A DNA stretch of 64,000 nt, taken from Bacteroidota bacterium (lineage in GTDB: Bacteria; Bacteroidota; Bacteroidia; 2-12-FULL-35-15). The stretch lies in the NCBI GenBank assembly GCA_040387415.1, contig JAZKDU010000011.1:27499-91498 (forward strand). Reading direction: 5' to 3'. The position numbers were made by a program, and so were the translations under genes. This document shows positions 11,186-40,900 of the stretch, piece by piece. Every line of letters starts with the position of its first letter. Position 1 is the first letter of the stretch. Below the pieces are notes generated by a model. The model saw only the letters and a program-made list of their open reading frames with translations, was not told the origin of the DNA and searched no databases.

Positions 11186-11361
11186 TCTTTATTTAAAAGG
11201 ATTAAGAATTCTAAAATTTACCGGATACAAAAATAACCTAATATTTCAGATAAACAAAGCCATCCGGATCTCTCTGAAAGGGAGTATATTACATTATTAT
11301 AAAGTTGAAAAATCACAAAAAATGTGCCTTTTGAACTTTCATCGATTAAGTAGCGAAAAAA

Positions 11362-11714
11362 AGCAGGCCTGTAAGCCGGGTTCTGTCGAGTTCTATCATT
11401 TATCTAGCCCTTTCGTCACCGAAAGGATCAAGCAACCTACCCTCCGGAATTGAGCGAGCAGCTCTAAAGCTCCGGTTTATTTGGTCTTTCAACTCCCAAG
11501 GTTTACCCGAAATAGCTGTTGCCAGCCATTTCCGTGAGCTCTTACCTCACATTTTCACCATCACCACGCATTGCTGCGGAGGCTGTATTTTTCTGTGGCA
11601 CTTGCTGTTCCTGCATTTCTACAAGACCTTCCAGTTAGGAAGTGGGATGCTCTGTGTTGCCCGGACTTTCCTCTCCCTTTCATTAGTAGAAAGGCAGCGA
11701 TAGAACGGCCTGCT
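11362..11714 (-). ncRNA. rnpB: RNase P RNA (bacterial type A)
   Basis: Minus strand has GAGGAAAGTCCGGGC, AGTGCCACAGAAAA and ACAGAACCCGGCTTAC; the ends AGCAGGCC...GGCCTGCT form P1. Confidence 0.96.
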
Positions 11715-11848
11715 GTTGTAAAGGTACGCAAAATTGTAGGATTTAGCTGATTTAGAATTATAATGGGTCTTAAGAATGAAATTCTTTTTTAGAATAAAAA
11801 CGTTATGGTTTTAAGGAGTAATCTCTGACCAATAGTGAATGGGGGCTT

Positions 11849-33302: not shown

Positions 33303-35648
33303 ATGAAGAAACAGCTACTTTCGGCATTCACAATCTTTTCTACACTTTTTGCTACCGCGCAGGAAGTCCTGATTCAGGAAGCACCATTAAATCCTGCTTT
33401 TATTGAATACCAGGCGAAGAGAAAGAGTAACGCTCTTGTTAGAGAAGTAAGTCGCGAAGGCTTTGTGCTTGGAATAATACCAGGCACGGTTGTTCCTGAT
33501 TTCACGGCCTATTCGGAAAATAACAATCAAAAAAGTATGCAAACCTTGCCAGCGGTTTACGATATGCGTACCAATGGCAAAATTACTCCGGTTAAAGATC
33601 AGGGGAATTGCGGTTCCTGCTGGCTTTTCCCTACAATGGGTGCTGTAGAATCAAGTTGGAAAGTGCTTGGGTTAAGTAATTTCGATCTTTCGGAGGATAA
33701 TTTAAAAAATTGTCATGGCTTTGATTATTTACCCTGCGATGGTGGTAACCACGAAATGGCTACCTCTTATTTCAGCAGAAGCACCGGGCCTTATTTAGAA
33801 ACACAGGATCCATATTCTGCCACATCAACAGCTTGTCCTACGGGCCTTACTCCAACTGCGTATGTATCAGATGCGCGTTTTTTACCCAGGAATAAAAATG
33901 CAATCAAACAGGCATTATTTGATTTCGGTGCCGTATATAACACCTTCCATTGGGATGATGATAGCTATAACGAATCTGATTATACGTATTATTACAGTGG
34001 ATCGAGCTCTGATTATAATCACGCAGTGCTTATTGTTGGCTGGGATGATACAAAAGTAACCGCAGGCGGTACCGGTGCCTGGATTATTAAAAACAGCTGG
34101 GGGGCTTCCTGGGGGCAAAACGGATTCTTTTACCTATCCTACAATGATACCAAAGCAATGACGGATGCCACGTATTACCCTGCCAGGGTGGATTATAATG
34201 CAGATGCTAAAATTTCCTATTACGATCATCTGGGAATGACTACTTCCATTGGTTTTGGTACTAAAACAGGTTATGGTCTTGTTAAATTTATACCTGCTGC
34301 CAACGAACAAATTACAAAAGTGGGGACCTGGGTTGCAGGAAGTAATGCGAAAGTGACAATAGAAATTTATAATACGCTCAGCGGAACCTTATCCTCATTA
34401 ATGGGTTCCATCCCAATGAAAACCTGCCCACTGCCAGGTTATTACACCTTTGATCTGCCAAGTCCAATAAGTGTTACTGCTGGTAATGATTATTATGTTA
34501 AAGTGAAATACAATACCCCGGGCACAAATTACCCTGTACCTGTAGAAAGTAAAATAGCAGACTACACATCCAATGCAGTAATAGAAACTGGTAAATGCTG
34601 GATAAGCGGCAATGGTACTTCCTGGTCGGCTGTTGGCAGTACAAGTTCCAAAAAATATGATGTTTGTGTTAAAGTATACACTAAAACAGCACTATGTGCC
34701 CCAATTACCAGTGCTGCAGCCACTCCATTAACTTCTAATGCTTGTATAGGCGGTACCACTACATTTAGTGTAAGTCCCGTAGGAAGCGGTAATACTTATC
34801 AATGGAAAGTAAGTACAAATGGAGGAACTACCTGGCTCAACTTGTCCAATTCCGGAAATTATTCAAACGTGAGCACAAGTACATTAACCGTAAATGGAAT
34901 TACTTCCGCTTTTAATAACAGAAAATTCCGCTGTATCGTTAGCAATCCTTGTTCCACTGTTAATTCCAATATGGTGACGTTAACTACTAACAATACTCCT
35001 GTAGTAACAACGCAGCCGGTTAATAAGTCCATTGGTGCTGGTGGAAATACTTCTTTTACCTTTTCTGCAACAGGTACAGGCAAAACGTATCAATGGAAAG
35101 TGAGTACCAATGGCAGCACCTGGACAAACCTCACCAATTCGGGGCCTTACACTAACGTTACCTCTTTAACATTAAATATTACAGGCGCAACTGCAGTATT
35201 AAGCGGTAAAAAGTACCGTTGTGTTGTTACCAATAGCTGCGGAACCGTGAATACAAATGTGGCAACGTTAACGGTTTCGTCAACATCACAAGCACCGCAA
35301 AATGATGATGATACGGAACATGATAATCTCCGCATTATGGATGAAAATATAGTAGATATAGAGGATGGAGCGGTTTATAAATTAGGATTTAATTATCCGA
35401 ATCCGTTTTCTTATTATACGAATGTGGAATATACCCTGCCGGAAGATGCCACAGTAACTTTAGAGATTTCTAACGTGCTTGGAACACAAATAGCGCTATT
35501 GGTAAATTCTAAAAAAGAAGCCGGTAATTACCAGATAGAATTTGATGGTAGCACCTTACCTGCAGGTTATTATACCTATACATTAAGAGCCAATGGTAAA
35601 ACACAGGCTTTTTCTCAGACAAGGATGATGGTAATTGTAAGGGAATAA
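33303..35648 (+). CDS. Papain-family (C1A) cysteine peptidase with lectin-like region, two Ig-like domains and T9SS type A CTD
   Basis: QGNCGSCW (Gln/Cys), NHAVLIVGW (His), KNSWG (Asn); YQWKVSTNG Ig repeats; NYPNPF...GYYTYTL CTD. Confidence 0.92.
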   Translation: MKKQLLSAFTIFSTLFATAQEVLIQEAPLNPAFIEYQAKRKSNALVREVSREGFVLGIIPGTVVPDFTAYSENNNQKSMQTLPAVYDMRTNGKITPVKDQGNCGSCWLFPTMGAVESSWKVLGLSNFDLSEDNLKNCHGFDYLPCDGGNHEMATSYFSRSTGPYLETQDPYSATSTACPTGLTPTAYVSDARFLPRNKNAIKQALFDFGAVYNTFHWDDDSYNESDYTYYYSGSSSDYNHAVLIVGWDDTKVTAGGTGAWIIKNSWGASWGQNGFFYLSYNDTKAMTDATYYPARVDYNADAKISYYDHLGMTTSIGFGTKTGYGLVKFIPAANEQITKVGTWVAGSNAKVTIEIYNTLSGTLSSLMGSIPMKTCPLPGYYTFDLPSPISVTAGNDYYVKVKYNTPGTNYPVPVESKIADYTSNAVIETGKCWISGNGTSWSAVGSTSSKKYDVCVKVYTKTALCAPITSAAATPLTSNACIGGTTTFSVSPVGSGNTYQWKVSTNGGTTWLNLSNSGNYSNVSTSTLTVNGITSAFNNRKFRCIVSNPCSTVNSNMVTLTTNNTPVVTTQPVNKSIGAGGNTSFTFSATGTGKTYQWKVSTNGSTWTNLTNSGPYTNVTSLTLNITGATAVLSGKKYRCVVTNSCGTVNTNVATLTVSSTSQAPQNDDDTEHDNLRIMDENIVDIEDGAVYKLGFNYPNPFSYYTNVEYTLPEDATVTLEISNVLGTQIALLVNSKKEAGNYQIEFDGSTLPAGYYTYTLRANGKTQAFSQTRMMVIVRE

Positions 35649-35800
35649 TTGCCAAGTGCTTGGTTTAATAAGTTTGCATTTGATTAATAATCCTTAACAT
35701 TGTAAGAGGGTATAACTAAGTTAGCGGTCAGGCTAAGACAACCGAAATAATTAGCAGACGAATACGAAAATATTAACTTTGATAATAAATTAACAACTAA

Positions 35801-36181
35801 TTGAGCTGGACAAAAATTTTAGAACAGGTTAGTAAAATCCAAATAAAGAGCATAACAGATTCTTTATTTAAATATGGACTTTACATCTTCGTGTTAGCGA
35901 CTATATCTGGTATTTTCAAGACCGAACCTTGGATAACTATATTGCTTTTTGCAGTTGGCGGTCTTTTCGAATTTATTGGACTTGGTTTCTATTTTTATTT
36001 CGCAAAAAAAAATCCCGACTATTTACGTTCAGAAAGTTTTCAATTAAAAAAGCAATCAATCGAAATGTTGGGAGACAAGGACAATAATCTAAATCCCCAT
36101 GTAAAAAATATTGTATTCATCGCCAGCCCTTTTTCCAAAGAACTTGGACAAGAGGACGACAAAATGAAATTTGGAGAATAA
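35801..36181 (+). CDS. Two-TM hypothetical protein
   Basis: TTG start after a TAACTTTG box (35774-35781); two hydrophobic helices, then KKNPDYLRSESFQLKKQSIEMLG; TAATG overlap with the next ORF. Confidence 0.7.
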   Translation: MSWTKILEQVSKIQIKSITDSLFKYGLYIFVLATISGIFKTEPWITILLFAVGGLFEFIGLGFYFYFAKKNPDYLRSESFQLKKQSIEMLGDKDNNLNPHVKNIVFIASPFSKELGQEDDKMKFGE

Positions 36182-36477
36182 TGTTTAATAAAGCATACAT
36201 AATAAATTTTGACAAAGGCGGACTGCATGATACCTTCGATTACAAGAAGTTTCATGAAAGTTTAATCAACGCTAACGGACTTGTTAGTTGGTCGCACTAC
36301 CTTGCAAGTTCATATATAATTATTGTTGAATATCATATTACAGCAACGAGCATTAGCAATTTTGTACAGGCAAGAATGCCGGACAAACATTTCATTGTTG
36401 TTGAACTTAACTTGAATGATCATAATGGTTGGCTTCCTAAGGAAGCTTGGGACTGGATAAATAAATATAAAAATTAA
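36181..36477 (+). CDS. Small alpha/beta hypothetical protein (possible ferredoxin-like fold)
   Basis: 98 aa; YIINFD...WSHYLASSYII...FIVVEL...GWLPKEAWDWI; coupled to the upstream ORF. Confidence 0.75.
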   Translation: MFNKAYIINFDKGGLHDTFDYKKFHESLINANGLVSWSHYLASSYIIIVEYHITATSISNFVQARMPDKHFIVVELNLNDHNGWLPKEAWDWINKYKN

Positions 36478-36481
36478 AAAA

Positions 36482-36718
36482 ATGCAAGAATTAAAATCTA
36501 CAGATGTGGTACAATTAAATGCTGGTGGACCTAAAATGTCTATACTTCGCATCATTGGTGCTGACAAGACTAATTTTCAACTAAAAACAGCTGACGAATT
36601 ATTGAAGATGCAGGGTTTTGGAGAAGGTGATGTGATTTGTCAATGGTTTGAAGGAAACAAACTTACATCAGGGACATTTAAACGCGACACATTGATTATT
36701 ATCACCCCCGAAAAATAA
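36482..36718 (+). CDS. YodC/DUF2158 family protein
   Basis: DVVQLNAGGPKMSI...VICQWFEGNKL.SGTF. Confidence 0.8.
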   Translation: MQELKSTDVVQLNAGGPKMSILRIIGADKTNFQLKTADELLKMQGFGEGDVICQWFEGNKLTSGTFKRDTLIIITPEK

Positions 36719-36778
36719 GCCCGAACCGCTAACAGCAGTGCAAGCTGCAAATGCTTTTTTTATTTGTGCGCTTCGCGC

Positions 36779-36838
36779 GAAATATTTTGCATCCGCAATT
36801 CAGTTCAGTACATTTAATAAATTTTATTCGTGAAGACA
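36779..36838 (+). repeat. Degenerate direct repeat, copy A (attC-interior-like)
   Basis: About 47/60 identical to 37910..37968 by hand alignment. Confidence 0.75.
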
Positions 36839-36915
36839 GATTTGTGAGATAACCGCACAATTTTGTAGCCGAAAAGCGGTAGTGAAAATTGCCTTATAAA
36901 TCATATTAGTCAATT

Positions 36916-37893
36916 ATGATAGAAAGAATTGTTAAAGATCCGCGTACAGAAACCTTTGAACAAATTGAAGATATTGTTGCTAAATTCAATCATTACAGAG
37001 AATTAAGCGCTAAAGGATTACATAACCTTTCAGATAATGAAATTGAGGGTTTGAAAAAAAATTTTAGCAAATTCCTAAACTTAAATCTCACTTTTTTTGC
37101 CGACACTTATCCTGTTAAATTATTTAGGGTAACAAATAACAAACTCATATACGACCAACCTCATTACAAACTTCAAAAGATTTCTGACCTTATTGGTCCA
37201 CCAACTGAAAAAGCACATATCGGCAGATGTAATTTAAAAGATGAAAGTGTTTTTTATGCAGCCCTCGATTTTAAGACTGCTCTATGGGAGACACAACCTC
37301 AGAAAGGTGATGTTATTACAGTAAGCGAATGGACCATAAAGAAGGGCGAAAAATTGAACAATCATTTTATTTTTCATCCGGAAGCTGAAAACTTAAATAG
37401 GGATAGTAAAGATGCATTTATAGCACATATTAGAGCTCAAGGAAATCTAAATCCGAAAATAGGGCCAATTTTTAAAGAAATAATGAAGTTCTTTGCAGAA
37501 GAATTTATGAAGCCAGTAAATAATGATAAAAAAAACAATTATTTATTTTCAAGTATTATTTCTTCACAACTTTTACAAACGAGCCCTGACGAAAATGGAT
37601 TTAAAGTTGAATCAATAAGCTATCCAAGTACTAAAATAGACCATGAAATTTCAAATATTGCAATTCTTAACTCTTTAGTTCTAAAAAAATTAGATTTACA
37701 AGCTGTAACTATTTTCACTGTTGTCGAAACTAATTATGATTTGTCTAATAAAAAAAGAGAAGACCTTATCATGGTTTCAGCGTTAAAAACATATCATAAA
37801 AATTTCGACTTTGAAAAAGACCAAATATATTATGATCTTGAGAGAGAATTTAAAGATGCAATTGAGTTAGACACAGGAAAAAAAGTCGAATAA
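36916..37893 (+). CDS. RES-domain protein (putative NAD+ phosphorylase-like)
   Basis: LFRV, GRCN, FYAA...LWE, ISYPS..., NIAI motif order typical of RES domains. Confidence 0.72.
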   Translation: MIERIVKDPRTETFEQIEDIVAKFNHYRELSAKGLHNLSDNEIEGLKKNFSKFLNLNLTFFADTYPVKLFRVTNNKLIYDQPHYKLQKISDLIGPPTEKAHIGRCNLKDESVFYAALDFKTALWETQPQKGDVITVSEWTIKKGEKLNNHFIFHPEAENLNRDSKDAFIAHIRAQGNLNPKIGPIFKEIMKFFAEEFMKPVNNDKKNNYLFSSIISSQLLQTSPDENGFKVESISYPSTKIDHEISNIAILNSLVLKKLDLQAVTIFTVVETNYDLSNKKREDLIMVSALKTYHKNFDFEKDQIYYDLEREFKDAIELDTGKKVE

Positions 37894-37909
37894 AGGTAAT
37901 TAGTCAATC

Positions 37910-37968
37910 GAAATATTTTGCATTTACAATTTACTTCAATACATTAATTAAGTTTTTCGGTTAAGACA
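37910..37968 (+). repeat. Degenerate direct repeat, copy B
   Basis: GAAATATTTTGCAT...AAGACA, matches 36779..36838. Confidence 0.75.
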
Positions 37969-37986
37969 AGTTACTGTAATTCAATT

Positions 37987-40900
37987 TTACCTCGTTAACA
38001 CAATCCGTTTACTTTCCTTCTTGTTTTCTTTAATTATATTCAGAACATATATTCCTGAGGGCAGGTTTTGTTCCAGTTCAATCACTTCTTTAACACAGCC
38101 ATTAACAATGGAGAGTTGTTTCTGAAATACGGTCTGCCCAAGCGAATTAAGGATTTCAACTGAAAAGGTATTTTCCTTTAGTTCATCAACACAATATTCC
38201 ATTGTAAATCGCCCGGTAGTGGGGTTTGGATAAAGTATAAAATCATAGGGAACAAAATCATCTTTTGTTTCAAGGGTTTCCAAGGCAATATCCTCCATTC
38301 TTTGTCCTCCGGATATGCCTTTTAATTTAAGGTTAAAGCTGATGTCAGAACTGCTTCGCGAGTTCTGGTGAATTTCCACTGCAATAACGTTGTTGCCATT
38401 TACAAGGCTCGCTTTGCTGATGTTGGCTATTACATACGTTGATTCACTAGCTCCATCCACATAATTGGGTGCCAGCGTATTGTAATAGATAGTTCCGGCA
38501 GGCATATTATTTCTGTAAACTTCAACACCATTTAAATATACAACAGCACCGTCATCACGTATCAGGCTTAATTCCAAACTTGAAAAGGCGGATACATCAC
38601 TTACATTAAATGATTTTCTGAAATAGGTGGTAATGTATTTATTTGTTGATGAAGTACCATAGCCCACCACGGTGGCTTCGCCTCCATCACCATATCCCAA
38701 CTCAGTATTTCCGGTTTTCCAGCCAGTTTCATTGTAACTTACAGCTTTCCAGGTAGTTCCCTGATTTGTTCCGTTGTCCAGGTATTTCCAGCTGCCACCG
38801 GCTAAAATCAGGTCGGTATTGGGGCTTGGCGTAGTTGAAGTTGCCGGAGATAGGCGAATTCCGGGAATAGGACGCTCCATTGTCCCTTCGGGTGTCTGCC
38901 AGCCTACGGCAAGGTTATCGCCTCCTACAGCTTCTTTATGAAGTGCTTCTATGTAATATTTACTGCCGGCTGTTAAATAAATAAGAGCCGATTGCTGGGA
39001 AGGGTATTTAGTCCATTCACGGGAGTTGGTCCATCCGGTAACCGAGGCTATTTTTACTTTGCTGGATGGACTATCGTTTGTACTTAACCAAAGTTCCGCA
39101 TCATCATCGGCAGCTATCCAAAAGCGGTAATTACCGGTAGTTGGAGCACAAATAAATCCTTTTATCCTGTCGGCATAATTATCACCTGTATTTGTAGGAC
39201 CTTCAAAACTGCTCAGTTGGCTGGTACTTGTAGGTGCTGTAGTAACAGGGATCTGGTTCACATGATCACCTGTAACGTTTGCCCAGTATTCTCTTAAAAT
39301 AGTACCGGTTGCAGAACAGCTGCTAGGTGGTGCAGCAGATAATAATCCTTTCAGTTTCATATTAAAACTTAAATCAGAACTGTTTCCGCTTGATTGATGG
39401 ATCTCCACCGCTATGGTGTTGTTTCCATTAATAAATTTGGAAGAGCTTATCGTGTGTTTGGTAAAAGTAGCTTCAGCTGGTTCACTTAATGCGCTGGATG
39501 CCAGAGTGGAAGATGTAATTGTTCCCGATGGCATGTTTGAACGCAAAACTTCAACCCCATTAATGTAAACCACAGCACCATCATCTTTTAACAATTGTAA
39601 TTCGAAAGAGGAGTATTGTGAAGGGTTTGAAATTGAAACGGTTTTCCTGAAATAAGTAGTAATGTACTTTGCAGAAGAGTTGGATCCAAAGGAAACTACC
39701 GTATTTTCATCGCTATCACCATAACCGAGCTCGGCAAGTCCTGTTTTCCAGCCGGAGTCGTTATAGGATGATGCTCTCCAGCCGGTTCCCTGGTTAGTTC
39801 CGTTATCAAGGTATTTCCATTGTGATCGTTCAGATATAAACGGCTCCTGAGTTTTTGTGAAAGAGTATTCTGCAAAATAATAAGTTCCATCCCGTTCAGG
39901 GCCAATTACAGTATAATCACCAGCTCCGGGATCAAGATCCGCCACTCTGCTATTGGAAACATTACCCGATAAAAAAACTTCATTGCTTCCCCCAAGGGTA
40001 ATTTCCGGTTGAGGCATTTCTAAAGTTTGGTTCCAGAAAGTACTGCCTGTATTTGAATATTTGGTAAGAGTAGTTGTAGTTTCACCGCTTACAAGGTACA
40101 TATTCCCTTGATTATCAGCAGTTCCGCCACCTTGCCCAACAATGCGGTTGCTGAATGTATAATTACCTGAAGACGAATACTTTGCAGCAAAAAGATCTCC
40201 GTATTCTGAAGAAGTATAAGTGGTAGCGCCAGCTCCAGGATCAAAATCAACCGTTCCTCTGAAAATACCAATCGCATACATATTACCTGATTCGTCAGTC
40301 GATAAATTAGAAAAGTAAATTTCTCCGTTATCGTCTAAATTATTTACCCATAAAAAGTTTCCATTCAAATCGTATTGAGCAATAAATGCGTCTGAATATC
40401 CAACGGAAGTTTTGCTGGCAGTACCTGAACTTGGGTCAAAGTCAGCAGTTCCTTTAAAATTGCCGGCCAGGCTTAATCTGTTTGAATTATCAACAGAAAT
40501 TCCAGCTACTGAAACGCCTTCTACCTCGTTATTATCAATTTTTTTAGCCCACAAAAAGTTCCCTGCCGCATCATATTTAGAAAAGTACCCCGTATTATTA
40601 GTTGAAAAAAGATTAAACACTCCCGGACCCGGATTAAAATCAACGGTTCCTCTGAATATACCAGCAGCATAAATATTGCCTGCATTATCTGTACTGGCTT
40701 TTACAAACAAAAAATCATTATAGCTGGTATTCGCTGCCGTAAGCTTTTTGGCAAATATGAGGTTACCATCTAAGGTATATTTGGCAATGAACGCACTGTG
40801 TCTGACATCTGCCTTTAAATAAGCTTTCCCGGCTCCCGGATCAAAATCCGCGGAATCAGTACCGGAGGTGGTGACATAAATTGCACCGGTGATTAAAATG

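What the first reader, a model, noticed from the sequence alone, without database searches (positions are those of the whole stretch)
35720..36884. Integron-cassette signature without an integrase: a three-ORF cassette
Seen: GTTAGCGGT at the left end and its exact 9-bp inverse ACCGCTAAC starting 7 nt after the YodC-like stop. After it come a collapsed GCAG/CTGC hairpin and, at 36862-36884, TTTGTAGCCGAAAAGCGGTAGTG resembling an attC right end with a mutated GTT. Established: integrated cassettes start at R' (GTT...) and end at a complementary R'' (...AAC) next to the stop codon. Inference: a cassette inserted at a secondary site whose attC has decayed. It is atypical in carrying three ORFs and its own -7 box.
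Basis: partly seen in the sequence, partly recalled or inferred. Interest (0 to 1): 0.68.

Follow-up and report, generated by a model that had tools for sequence, protein, structure and literature searches.

The report
Decayed integron-type gene cassette in Bacteroidota
The three small genes sit in a fossil integron-style gene cassette whose recombination site has decayed; intact copies of that site separate anti-phage defence genes into arrays in related uncultured Bacteroidota.

Summary
GTTAGCGGT (35720-35728) and ACCGCTAAC (36725-36733) are there, as are the GCAG/CTGC hairpin and the 36862-36884 string. Alone the 9-bp inverted repeat is chance-level (P about 0.24), and 36719-36890 has no significant fold or covariance-model hit.

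Comparison with other loci supports the cassette reading. In related Bacteroidota contigs, ORF1 and ORF2 plus a variable third gene form one unit. It is bounded by structured repeats of about 135 nt (100-202): ..TAAC, a roughly 22-bp imperfect stem, CAAAAC, GTTA... These repeats form co-oriented arrays of 2-4 sites separating restriction-modification, GmrSD, TIR and ATPase genes. 21 of 27 stem pairs show compensatory changes.

Each cassette's left end after G|TT is complementary to its own right-end core (permutation P = 1e-4), as integron cassettes require.

Window 36722-36839 is homologous to one intact site (E = 9e-10). It has lost about 21 nt of one stem arm, and its GTT is now GGT. A second remnant (37909-37971) follows the next gene, a RES-domain protein.

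No integrase lies in the 64 kb or in the related loci. So this is a small decayed, CALIN-like cassette pair. The function of ORF1 and ORF2 is unknown; a defence or addiction role is inferred from context only.

The parts
35710..35728 (+). Left junction TATAAC-TAA-GTTAGCGGT. The R'-type core GTTAGCGGT is at 35720-35728. The inferred crossover point lies between G35720 and T35721, so the cassette proper starts at TTAGCGGT.
   Evidence: Searches give the sequence. In L046 the same GTTAGCGGT follows a full 128-bit site directly upstream of ORF1. The whole TATAA(C/G)TAAGTTAGCGG string is shared with L048 and L009. The model's own alignment reads it as an R''/R' pair with nothing between, at 6.1 bits, not significant.
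35774..35781 (+). TAACTTTG, a Bacteroidetes-type -7 promoter box for the three-gene operon.
   Evidence: Read directly from the sequence. TAACTTTG is also seen just upstream of ORF1 in L002, L003, L004, L045, L046 and L047. The promoter consensus itself is from my own knowledge.
35801..36181 (+). ORF1, 126 aa, TTG start. A small protein with two hydrophobic (predicted transmembrane) segments and a conserved C-terminal tail (NPDYLRSESFQ..IEMLGDKDN).
   Evidence: Found directly upstream of ORF2 in every Bacteroidota locus with enough upstream sequence (42-81% identity). The N-terminus (x)NWTKIL is conserved with GTG, TTG or ATG starts. phrog_27377 E 2e-10. No match in Pfam, NCBIfam or PADLOC.
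36181..36477 (+). ORF2, 98 aa. Its ATG overlaps the ORF1 stop by 1 nt. Predicted ferredoxin-like beta-alpha-beta-beta-alpha-beta-alpha fold. Function unknown.
   Evidence: 34 close relatives; invariant H25 W37 H39 H81 G83 W90 W92. AF2 model with pLDDT 90. No Foldseek PDB hit with E below 0.01. 773 representative clusters at E up to 0.001. phrog_1090 E 1.8e-6.
36482..36718 (+). ORF3, 78 aa, DUF2158 (YodC-like). This is the variable third gene of the cassette.
   Evidence: Pfam PF09926, 41.6 bits against a cut-off of 22.3. Only L009 carries the same third gene (76% identity). Other loci have unrelated third genes, including a TIR_2 protein in L046.
36725..36884 (+). Decayed attC-like site. R'' ACCGCTAAC is at 36725-36733. 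The shortened L'' arm and residual hairpin are at 36735-36748. A conserved interior with a GC hairpin and T-run lies at 36763-36790. The L' remnant CCGCAC...TAGCCG follows. The spacer GAAAAGC and mutated R' (GGTA at 36878-36881, in place of GTTA) close the site.
   Evidence: blastn of the intact site L047 780-962 against the whole window gives its best hit at 36746-36839 (73% over 94 nt, E 9e-10), with a collinear 17-nt match at 36722-36738. Alignment A6 shows a gap of about 21 nt in the L'' arm. L004a and L004b also match (E 4e-4 and 1.5e-4 against the intergenic regions). Folding is not significant: z -1.16 and -0.92. Model R1 gives 10.2 bits, E about 1 over the window.
36763..36790 (+). GC-rich hairpin TGCGCTTCGCGCG followed by AAATATTTT. 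It is terminator-like and lies inside the site remnant.
   Evidence: The same hairpin and T-run are conserved in the L047a site.
36916..37893 (+). Neighbouring cassette gene of 325 aa, a RES-domain family protein. A source names relatives 'RES family NAD+ phosphorylase'.
   Evidence: Pfam RES, 22.7 bits, just under the 23.2 cut-off. 95 relatives, many carrying PF08808. In L123 and L124 it sits in a unit [302 aa + 325 aa] that follows a 62-bit site and has complementary ends (G|TTAGGCG and CGCCTAAT). GC content is 0.26-0.33 against 0.40 in the flanks.
37909..37971 (+). Second, partial remnant of the same repeat type (interior only). It lies between the 325-aa gene and the end of the convergent PA14/T9SS gene.
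   Evidence: Direct repeat 36778-36825 / 37909-37956, 81% identical. blastn of L047a gives E 0.003 over the window and 1.7e-5 over the intergenic regions. Alignment A6.

Best explanation
Window 35720-37985 is the fossil of a small integron-type cassette array, CALIN-like, with no integrase nearby.

Cassette 1 runs from T35721 to about G36878. It carries a self-promoted three-gene operon (ORF1 two-transmembrane protein, ORF2 ferredoxin-like protein, ORF3 DUF2158). Its own recombination site lies at its 3' end. Cassette 2 carries a RES-domain gene followed by a site fragment.

In relatives, sites of this family are about 135 nt long (100-202). They read ..TAAC(R''), then AG, an imperfect L stem of about 22 bp, a variable interior, the spacer CAAAAC, and GTTA..(R'). 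The strand complementary to the genes folds best.

Shown here:
- The site family exists and its stem covaries.
- The sites lie in co-oriented arrays between gene modules.
- Each cassette's left end matches its own R''.
- The window's site is homologous to an intact site but has lost its stem and its GTT.

Inferred from established integron biology:
- A tyrosine recombinase of the IntI kind cuts between G and TT.
- Cassettes excise as circles and reinsert.
- The window copy is now immobile because the L'' arm is deleted and GTT has become GGT.

The ORF1-ORF2 core has its own promoter and travels with swappable third genes, one of them a TIR protein. It sits among restriction-modification, GmrSD, Abi, OLD-like and TIR genes. 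I infer from context only that it is a defence or addiction-type module. In that reading the membrane protein would be the effector and the small cytosolic protein its regulator. No step of that was tested.
For: - Ends recur. L046 has a 128-bit site ending ...GCAAAACGTTAGCGGT directly upstream of ORF1. L004 and L046 have ACCGCTAACAGCA and ACCGTTAACAGCA directly after different third genes.
- Site family. RNAalifold on 7 sites gives 27 pairs, 14 of them with compensatory changes. Model R1 recovers non-seed sites at 23-115 bits in L047, L011, L004, L056, L014, L053, L009, L123 and L125. It finds none in 63 loci outside this Bacteroidota group.
- Covariation. On 20 matches, 89.8% of cells pair, against 69% in shuffles and 37-48% when partners are slid. 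21 of 27 pairs show double changes.
- Strand bias. The bottom strand folds better than the top in 7 of 9 intact sites.
- Arrays. L053 has 4 sites, L047 has 3, L004 has 3 and L046 has 2. Genes are co-oriented, with 1-3 genes per unit.
- Cassette rule. Left end against own R'' scores 3.7/5 for self and 2.0/5 for non-self, permutation P = 1.2e-4. Six of 11 cassettes are perfect. Homologous ORF1-ORF2 cassettes carry different but still matching cores: TTAGCGGT/ACCGCTAA, TTATATGC/GCATATAA and TTATGCCT/AGGCATAA.
- The window's site is homologous to the intact L047a site, E 9e-10, with a deletion of about 21 nt in the arm. A second remnant is present.
- The repeat interior is multicopy in the source metagenome. 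Depth is 77-150 against 22.8 for the host contig. Loose ends show intact arms.
- GC content dips over 35600-38000.
- Peptidase orthologues at 60-71% identity are not followed by the module.
- Cassette cargo is EcoRI restriction-modification, GmrSD, AAA_14/DUF4143, Imm11 and TIR. This fits the published view of chromosomal integron cassettes as stores of defence genes (bioRxiv 10.1101/2024.07.02.601686).
Against: - No integron integrase, or any tyrosine recombinase, was found in the 64-kb window or in the Bacteroidota loci. The test was a tblastn with an IntI1 sequence recalled from memory, which is weak. Flanks were at most 10 kb.
- The IntegronFinder attC model could not be run.
- The window's own site fails every structural test. 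A general sequence profile of 16 sites does not find it. Its identification rests mainly on homology to one subtype, L047a, plus short matches to L004a, L004b and L046b.
- The sites are longer than most attC sites. They carry an asymmetric spacer and conserved interior motifs that canonical attC sites lack.
- ORF1-ORF2 also occurs in islands without such sites (L002, L005, L007, L013, L129-L132).
- No clean empty site was found.
- The left junction's 9 nt upstream of GTT are shared by three loci with different flanks. Simple independent insertion does not predict that.
Confidence: 0.74

Rival explanations
Another recombinase might act on them, or they might be REP-like structured intergenic repeats combining a terminator with other functions. 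The resemblance to attC would then be convergent. The window unit would still be a mobile module with decayed ends, but not an integron cassette.
For: - No IntI was found.
- A serine recombinase-like ORF lies next to the module in L011 (10750-11394).
- The sites are long and have conserved interior motifs of the type ..TTTGTGC / ..TTTAGTGC / ..GAAGTGC, plus a terminator-like hairpin.
- RefSeq Bacteroidetes genomes almost lack integrons (PMC9024848).
Against: - The invariant cores are AAC and GTT. Two R' cores are the canonical GTTAGGC (L053a, L123).
- The unit boundary falls at G|TT, with the left end matching the unit's own R''. That is the specific footprint of attC x attC/attI exchange.
- The strand bias of folding and the co-oriented arrays fit attC.
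- Passive REP elements would not produce matched ends.
Confidence: 0.17
2. There is nothing special here. The three ORFs are an ordinary small operon. The 9-bp inverted repeat is a chance match, and the downstream hairpins are just its terminator.
For: - The inverted repeat is chance-level in isolation.
- The folds are not significant.
- Terminator-like hairpins are present.
- Model R1 gives no significant hit in the window.
Against: - The same end motifs bound homologous units next to full sites in other contigs.
- The window's site matches an intact site at E 9e-10.
- A second remnant is present.
- The matched-end rule holds across the family.
- The genes are not kept in place in relatives.
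Confidence: 0.04
3. GTTAGCGGT and ACCGCTAAC are the terminal inverted repeats of a small transposon or MITE-like element that carries the three genes.
For: A perfect 9-bp inverted repeat flanks a unit of about 1 kb that is found in several contexts.
Against: - There is no target-site duplication at 35711-35719 / 36734-36742.
- There is no transposase.
- The right arm is followed by about 150 nt that belong to the unit's site.
- In arrays, the left arm is the 3' end of the preceding site.
Confidence: 0.03

Closest known systems
Integron gene cassettes and attC sites; CALIN (clusters of attC sites lacking an integron integrase; Cury et al. 2016; IntegronFinder 2.0, PMC9024848)
   Same: - Inverse cores ..AAC / GTT...
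- An imperfect palindrome whose pairing is kept through compensatory changes.
- Better folding of the strand opposite the genes.
- The site lies at the 3' end of co-oriented gene units in arrays.
- The unit boundary falls at G|TT, with the left end complementary to the unit's own R''.
- No integrase alongside, which is what defines a CALIN.
   Different: - Typical length is about 135 nt (100-202), at or above the usual upper range.
- There is a 4-6 nt spacer on the L'-R' side only.
- Conserved interior motifs and, in one subtype, a terminator-like hairpin.
- Most cassettes hold 2-3 genes and carry their own promoter.
- No IntI has yet been linked to the sites.
- The window copy is structurally dead.
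Sedentary chromosomal integrons with lineage-specific, highly similar attC sites (for example the Vibrio cholerae repeats of about 120-130 nt)
   Same: Long sites that resemble each other within a lineage. Arrays with many cassettes of unknown function, defence cassettes and toxin-antitoxin cassettes. Toxin-antitoxin cassettes there also have their own promoters (my own knowledge).
   Different: The host phylum is Bacteroidota, from uncultured freshwater, soil and sludge genomes. The arrays seen here are short (2-4 sites within 4-12 kb of contig). No attI or intI end was seen.
Defence systems carried as integron cassettes (bioRxiv 10.1101/2024.07.02.601686)
   Same: The cassettes carry EcoRI restriction-modification, a GmrSD-like type IV restriction enzyme, ATPase and TIR genes. 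These are compact systems packaged between sites.
   Different: That work concerns Vibrio and other Pseudomonadota. ORF1-ORF2 matches no PADLOC model and its activity is untested.
RES-domain toxins of RES-Xre toxin-antitoxin pairs (NAD+ phosphorylases or NADases); concerns the neighbouring 325-aa gene
   Same: RES-domain family membership of relatives (PF08808).
   Different: The protein is long (325 aa) and stands alone in the window, with no Xre partner. The window copy scores just under Pfam's cut-off.

Membership tests
attC site / integron gene cassette | R'' core ending in AAC, close to the stop codon of the last gene | tested here: met
   ACCGCTAAC at 36725-36733 starts 7 nt after the stop. 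All family sites carry ..(T/C)AAC followed by AG.
attC site / integron gene cassette | R' core GTTRRRY at the 3' end of the site | tested here: not met
   The window has GGTAGTG at 36878-36884 where the intact homologue L047a has GTTATGC. Intact family sites do meet the feature: GTTAGCG, GTTATAT, GTTATGC, and the canonical GTTAGGC in L053a and L123.
attC site / integron gene cassette | Imperfect L''/L' palindrome that folds as single-stranded DNA, with structure rather than sequence conserved | tested here: not met
   Window: z -1.16 and -0.92; model R1 gives 10.2 bits, E about 1; about 21 nt of the L'' arm are missing. Family: met. 21 of 27 pairs show compensatory changes, and 89.8% of cells pair against 37-48% for slid controls.
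attC site / integron gene cassette | The cassette's left end (after G|TT) is complementary to its own R'', the footprint of circular excision and reinsertion | tested here: met
   The window scores 8/8 (TTAGCGGT against ACCGCTAA). Across 11 cassettes, self scores 3.7/5 and non-self 2.0/5, P = 1.2e-4.
attC site / integron gene cassette | Extrahelical bases and an unpaired central spacer in the canonical geometry | tested here: inconclusive
   The consensus has a 4-nt unpaired TTTT on one side only, between the R and L boxes, and two 1x1 mismatches. No clear single-sided bulges are seen. I could not compare this with the curated model.
attC site / integron gene cassette | Hit to the curated attC covariance model of IntegronFinder | not testable with these tools
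   The model is not in Rfam. The Rfam scan of the window found only RNase P. My own model R1 stands in for it, but it was built from this family.
Complete integron | intI (a tyrosine recombinase with the IntI-specific insertion) and attI next to the array | tested here: not met
   tblastn with IntI1 (sequence from memory) gives no hit at E up to 10 in the window, L004, L009, L011, L046 or L053, and only chance-level hits (E 0.28 to 7.2) in L047, L048, L123 and L130. The called genes of these loci carry no Phage_integrase Pfam annotation. This is a weak test with limited flanks.
CALIN (cluster of attC sites lacking an integrase) | At least two attC sites clustered in the same orientation, with no intI nearby | tested here: inconclusive
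   The window has two remnants in the same orientation, 1.1 kb apart, but neither is a structurally valid site. Relatives L053, L047, L046 and L004 meet the feature with 2-4 valid sites.
DUF2158 (PF09926), for ORF3 | Score above Pfam's gathering cut-off | tested here: met
   41.6 bits against 22.3.
RES domain (PF08808), for the neighbouring 325-aa gene | Score above Pfam's gathering cut-off | tested here: inconclusive
   The window protein scores 22.7 against 23.2. About 40 of 95 relatives carry a precomputed PF08808 hit. Catalytic residues were not examined.
Known anti-phage defence systems (PADLOC-DB 2.0) | A match of ORF1, ORF2, ORF3 or the 325-aa protein to any model | tested here: not met
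   No families at E up to 1.

The most novel reading that the evidence does not exclude
ORF1 (a two-transmembrane protein) and ORF2 (a ferredoxin-like protein), together with a swappable third gene (TIR, DUF2158 or others), form an undescribed anti-phage or addiction system. It spreads in uncultured Bacteroidota as a self-promoted cassette. The 135-nt sites would be a distinct, so far uncatalogued attC class, served by an integrase that has not been identified and may be atypical.
Probability: 0.25. Interest if true: 0.7.

Novelty: new member of a known kind. Interest (0 to 1): 0.5.

Why it matters
Integrons are well charted in Proteobacteria but barely in Bacteroidota. A survey of RefSeq genomes found only integrases without cassettes and one complete integron in the Bacteroidetes (PMC9024848), although reviews list the phylum among carriers (PMC8618304).

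This window led to a coherent family of long, structured sites with matched ends. These sites package restriction-modification, GmrSD, TIR, ATPase and RES genes in environmental Bacteroidota. If an integrase is tied to them, the idea of integrons as stores of defence genes would extend to another major phylum, and a lineage-specific site model would be available for mining metagenomes.

The work also gives boundaries and context for an uncharacterised two-gene core. ORF2's wider family has 773 representative clusters and no Pfam family.

For the window itself the result is modest. It holds a dead cassette pair, useful as a marker of past horizontal gain.

Tried and rejected
- Significance of the 9-bp inverted repeat by shuffling: chance-level.
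- Rfam scan of the window: only RNase P. No tRNA genes.
- Folding 36719-36890 on both strands, and the RNA of 36715-36800: not better than shuffles.
- Model R1 on the window, with default filters and with filters off: no significant hit.
- nhmmer profile of 16 sites against the window: no hit at the locus. Only the L047a subtype, and short parts of L004a, L004b and L046b, match.
- A third remnant in the upstream intergenic region 35649-35719: only 8-10-nt matches to sites (E 0.08 or higher), so rejected. The one stronger match in that region (L053d, 23 nt, E 0.003) lies downstream at about 35768-35790.
- Empty-site test through orthologues of the flanking peptidase: four contexts were read and the module was absent downstream. 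The PA14 neighbour is not conserved either, so there is no clean empty site.
- Integrase search with tblastn: nothing found.
- PADLOC and NCBIfam on the four proteins: nothing.
- PDB search by sequence and by fold for ORF2: only generic ferredoxin-like resemblance, best E 0.011.
- Phage and plasmid collections: only distant 'hypothetical protein' relatives of ORF2.
- Metagenome contigs laid on the locus: no joint that skips the cassette.
- Transposon reading: no target-site duplication and no transposase.
- The other GTTAGCG copies in the window lie in the middle of long ORFs, not in intergenic DNA, and were dismissed.
Full report
**1. Observation**

- GTTAGCGGT is at 35720-35728.
- ACCGCTAAC is at 36725-36733, starting 7 nt after the ORF3 stop at 36716-36718.
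- The hairpin GCAGTGCAAGCTGC is at 36735-36748.
- TTTGTAGCCGAAAAGCGGTAGTG is at 36862-36884.
- TAACTTTG is at 35774-35781, 20 nt before ORF1.

Three tightly packed ORFs lie between the two motifs:
- ORF1, 35801-36181, 126 aa, TTG start, with two hydrophobic segments.
- ORF2, 36181-36477, 98 aa, overlapping the ORF1 stop by one base.
- ORF3, 36482-36718, 78 aa, DUF2158 (41.6 bits).

The inverted repeat alone is not evidence. Shuffled intergenic regions give a 9-mer inverted match in 23.5% of trials. It ranks 23rd of 61 inverted repeats in the region. The putative site 36719-36890 does not fold better than shuffles on either strand (z -1.16 and -0.92). Rfam finds nothing there.

**2. Surroundings**

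Upstream is a C1 peptidase with a type IX secretion (T9SS) sorting domain, at 33303-35648. Downstream are a 325-aa ORF (36916-37893, weak RES hit) and a convergent PA14/T9SS gene.

GC content falls to 0.26-0.34 over 35600-38000, against about 0.40 in the flanks.

The window has no tRNA gene. A tblastn with IntI1, using a sequence recalled from memory, finds no tyrosine recombinase.

**3. The genes elsewhere**

ORF2 has 34 close relatives, all from uncultured Bacteroidota. Scans of genome and metagenome collections gave more than 100 loci.

In every Bacteroidota locus with enough upstream sequence, an ORF1 homologue sits directly upstream of ORF2. In most of them the two genes abut or overlap.

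The gene after ORF2 varies.
- DUF2158 occurs only in the window and in L009.
- A TIR_2 protein follows in L046.
- Unrelated proteins of 81, 102, 152 or 181 aa follow elsewhere.
- In some loci no third gene follows.

The neighbours are typical of defence islands. They include EcoRI restriction-modification, GmrSD, AAA_15/21 with HNH, OLD-like, Abi_2, AbiEii, LRR with TIR, and Imm11.

**4. The ends elsewhere**

This is the key result. The window's end motifs are not private to the window.
- In L046 the string ...GCAAAACGTTAGCGGTAATGG... lies directly upstream of ORF1 and its TAACTTTG box. It is the 3' end of a 135-nt imperfect palindrome that begins ..GCATAACAGCACC.
- L004 and L046 have ACCGCTAACAGCA and ACCGTTAACAGCA right after different third genes.
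- L048 and L009 share the window's whole left junction, TATAA(C/G)TAAGTTAGCGG.
- The same repeat type recurs at spacings of about 0.2-3.5 kb in L053, L047, L046 and L004.

**5. The site family**

Nine sites were folded as single-stranded DNA. In most of the nine, and most clearly on the strand opposite the genes, a 5-bp R box (TAACG with TGTTA) is followed by four unpaired T and then a stem of about 22 bp. The bottom strand is more stable than the top in 7 of 9 sites.

RNAalifold on seven sites gives 27 pairs, 14 of them with compensatory changes.

A covariance model built from those seven sites (R1) recovers sites it was not built from:
- L047 5628-5762, 115 bits
- L011 6577-6713, 86 bits
- L004 8635-8768, 71 bits
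- L123 6912-7046, 62 bits
- L056, 61 bits
- L014, 45 bits
- L053 6930-7131, 35 bits
- L125, 31 and 27 bits
- L004 8902-9011, 28.5 bits
- L009, 23.5 bits

It finds none among 63 loci from other groups searched.

On the 20 matches, 89.8% of cells pair. Column shuffles give 69% (0 of 500 reach the observed value) and slid partners give 37-48%. 21 of 27 pairs carry changes on both sides. Two caveats apply. That alignment is fitted to the model, and it contains three reverse-strand self-matches.

**6. Arrays and cargo**

The sites lie between co-oriented units of one to three genes.
- L053: [ORF1-ORF2-81 aa] site [Imm11-like 274 aa + 191 aa + 63 aa] site [GmrSD-like 680 aa] site [AAA_14/DUF4143 497 aa] site.
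- L047: [124 aa] site [helix-turn-helix protein + 428 aa + 461 aa] site [ORF1-ORF2-152 aa] site.
- L004: [ORF1-ORF2-102 aa] site [EcoRI endonuclease + methylase] site [56 aa] site.
- L046: [383 aa] site [ORF1-ORF2-TIR] site.

So ORF1-ORF2 plus a third gene is always one unit. Multi-gene units with their own promoter are normal in this family.

**7. The cassette footprint**

Integron cassettes excise as circles and reinsert with the crossover between G and TT (established integron biology, from my own knowledge). The first bases of an integrated cassette must therefore be complementary to its own R''.

For 11 units with both ends known, the five variable positions match 3.7/5 for self pairs and 2.0/5 for non-self pairs. 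The permutation P is 1.2e-4. An earlier version on 10 units and 8 positions gave P = 6e-4, or 1.8e-3 without the window. Six units are perfect.

Homologous ORF1-ORF2 cassettes carry different but still matching cores:
- TTAGCGGT / ACCGCTAA in the window
- TTATATGC / GCATATAA in L047
- TTATGCCT / AGGCATAA in L053

This is covariation of the R box across cassette copies. The unit that holds the RES-family gene in L123 shows the same pattern: G|TTAGGCG on the left and CGCCTAAT on the right.

This is why the window's chance-level 9-mer is meaningful. It is the 8/8 instance of a family rule.

**8. The window's own site**

R1 does not detect it (10.2 bits; E about 1 over the window and 0.04 over 2.7 kb). 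A general profile of 16 sites does not detect it either.

One intact site is clearly homologous to it. This is L047 780-962, which scores 98 bits with R1.
- Its best blastn hit in the whole window is 36746-36839 (73% over 94 nt, E 9e-10).
- A collinear 17-nt match lies at 36722-36738.
- The second-best hit is 37909-37971 (E 0.003).

The alignment shows four things.
- R'' is intact.
- About 21 nt of the L'' arm are missing (AGCGAAAATGCGGAGTTTGTGC in L047a). That loss explains the 'collapsed' hairpin.
- The interior is conserved, including a GC hairpin with a T-run that looks like a terminator.
- The right end reads TAGCCGAAAAGCGGTAGTG where L047a has TAGCTGCAAACCGTTATGC. GTTA has become GGTA at 36878-36881.

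The copy after the 325-aa gene keeps only the interior (direct repeat 36778-36825 / 37909-37956, 81%).

I found no remnant in the upstream intergenic region.

**9. Population data**

In the source watershed metagenomes, several other contigs match only 36737-36846. Depth there is 77-150, against 22.8 for the host contig. Their loose ends show intact arms (...AACAGCACCTAAGCAAAATGCGGAG and ...AAACCCGCACATCTTGTAGCTGCAA). No contig skips the cassette. The repeat is therefore multicopy in the community. The window's copy is a degenerate one.

**10. Place in relatives**

Orthologues of the flanking peptidase at 60-71% identity are followed directly by unrelated genes in two contigs. In two others the contig ends shortly after the gene. 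The module is never there.

The PA14 neighbour is not conserved either, so a clean empty site was not obtained.

**11. Proteins**

ORF2:
- The model is confident (pLDDT 90) and shows a beta-alpha-beta-beta-alpha-beta-alpha fold.
- Foldseek finds only generic ferredoxin-like matches: HMA domains, Lrp/AsnC ligand domains, Cas2 5zyf and BPSL1038. The best E is 0.011.
- The PDB sequence search finds nothing.
- The wider family has 773 representative clusters.
- In other phyla a small two-transmembrane protein often precedes it.
- Some members carry an N-terminal DnaJ domain.
- Distant members lie on a Clostridium phage and on Rhodobacterales plasmids, all annotated as hypothetical.

ORF1, ORF2 and ORF3 match PHROGs of unknown function. 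None of the three, nor the 325-aa protein, matches PADLOC or NCBIfam.

The 325-aa protein belongs to a RES-domain family of 95 relatives, many carrying PF08808.

A defence or addiction role for ORF1-ORF2 is an inference from context only.

**12. Comparison and verdict**

The closest known things are integron attC sites and cassettes, and more precisely a CALIN. The long, lineage-specific attC sites of sedentary chromosomal integrons are also close.

For the family, the defining features I could test are met:
- AAC and GTT cores
- a stem whose pairing covaries
- better folding of the strand opposite the genes
- co-oriented arrays
- matched cassette ends

For the window copy, R'' and the matched ends are met. 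The stem and the GTT core are not.

Three things remain open:
- No integrase is linked to these sites.
- The curated attC model could not be run.
- The spacer geometry and the conserved interior differ from canonical sites.

Integrons are reported in Bacteroidota (PMC8618304, PMC9668308) but were nearly absent from RefSeq Bacteroidetes genomes (PMC9024848). Defence cargo in chromosomal integrons is a recent theme (bioRxiv 10.1101/2024.07.02.601686).

I therefore file this as a new member of a known kind. The 'secondary site' detail is unproven, and 'atypical three ORFs' turns out to be typical for this family.

Noticed in passing
window 36916-37893 and 37909-37971: The next gene encodes a 325-aa RES-domain family protein in very AT-rich DNA. 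A partial copy of the same site type follows it, so it is probably a second decayed cassette. In L123 and L124 its homologue shares a unit with a 302-aa gene, behind a 62-bit site.
   Followed up: partly
window 35710-35728; L048 about 826-843; L009 about 1833-1851: The left junction TATAA(C/G)-TAA-GTTAGCGG is a mini-palindrome (TAAC/GTTA with a 3-nt loop). Three loci with different upstream genes share it. It may be a fully collapsed upstream site or a preferred target. It remains unexplained.
   Followed up: partly
L046 1210-1344, L053 4990-5127, L047 780-962 and other sites: The variable interior of the sites holds 3-4 loosely periodic motifs ending in GTGC (CTTTGTGC, AGTTTGTGC, GTGAAGTGC, AGTTTAGTGC). 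One subtype also has a GC hairpin with a T-run. Canonical attC interiors are not conserved like this. The motifs could be protein-binding or terminator elements.
   Followed up: no
P0262, P0299, P0354: Some members of the ORF2 family carry an N-terminal DnaJ (J) domain. Others (P0278, P0290) carry a C-terminal extension of about 110 aa. These fusions are possible clues to function.
   Followed up: partly
L129-L132, L002, L005, L007: The ORF1-ORF2 pair also sits in defence islands that lack the structured sites, next to OLD-like, AbiEii, AAA_15/21-HNH, Abi_2 and LRR-TIR genes. The pair therefore moves by more than one route.
   Followed up: partly
L011 10750-11394 (- strand): A 214-aa ORF with a serine-recombinase-like N-terminus (MNYIAYYRVSTKKQ...) lies just downstream of the ORF1-ORF2 module. 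One R1 site lies 3 kb upstream.
   Followed up: no
L019-L023, L032, L036 (Alphaproteobacteria): Distant ORF2-like genes stand beside a divergent pair: an XRE-type helix-turn-helix gene and an ImmA/IrrE-like metallopeptidase gene (HELAHIALGHE motif). That arrangement is typical of regulators of mobile elements.
   Followed up: no
window 11356-11716 (- strand): Bacterial RNase P RNA class A, 267 bits. It marks this as ordinary chromosomal DNA.
   Followed up: no
window 36676-36943, runs X1-X3: The repeat interior has 3-6 times the depth of the host contig in the source watershed metagenomes. Many short contigs end inside it, so these sites probably break assemblies of such arrays.
   Followed up: partly
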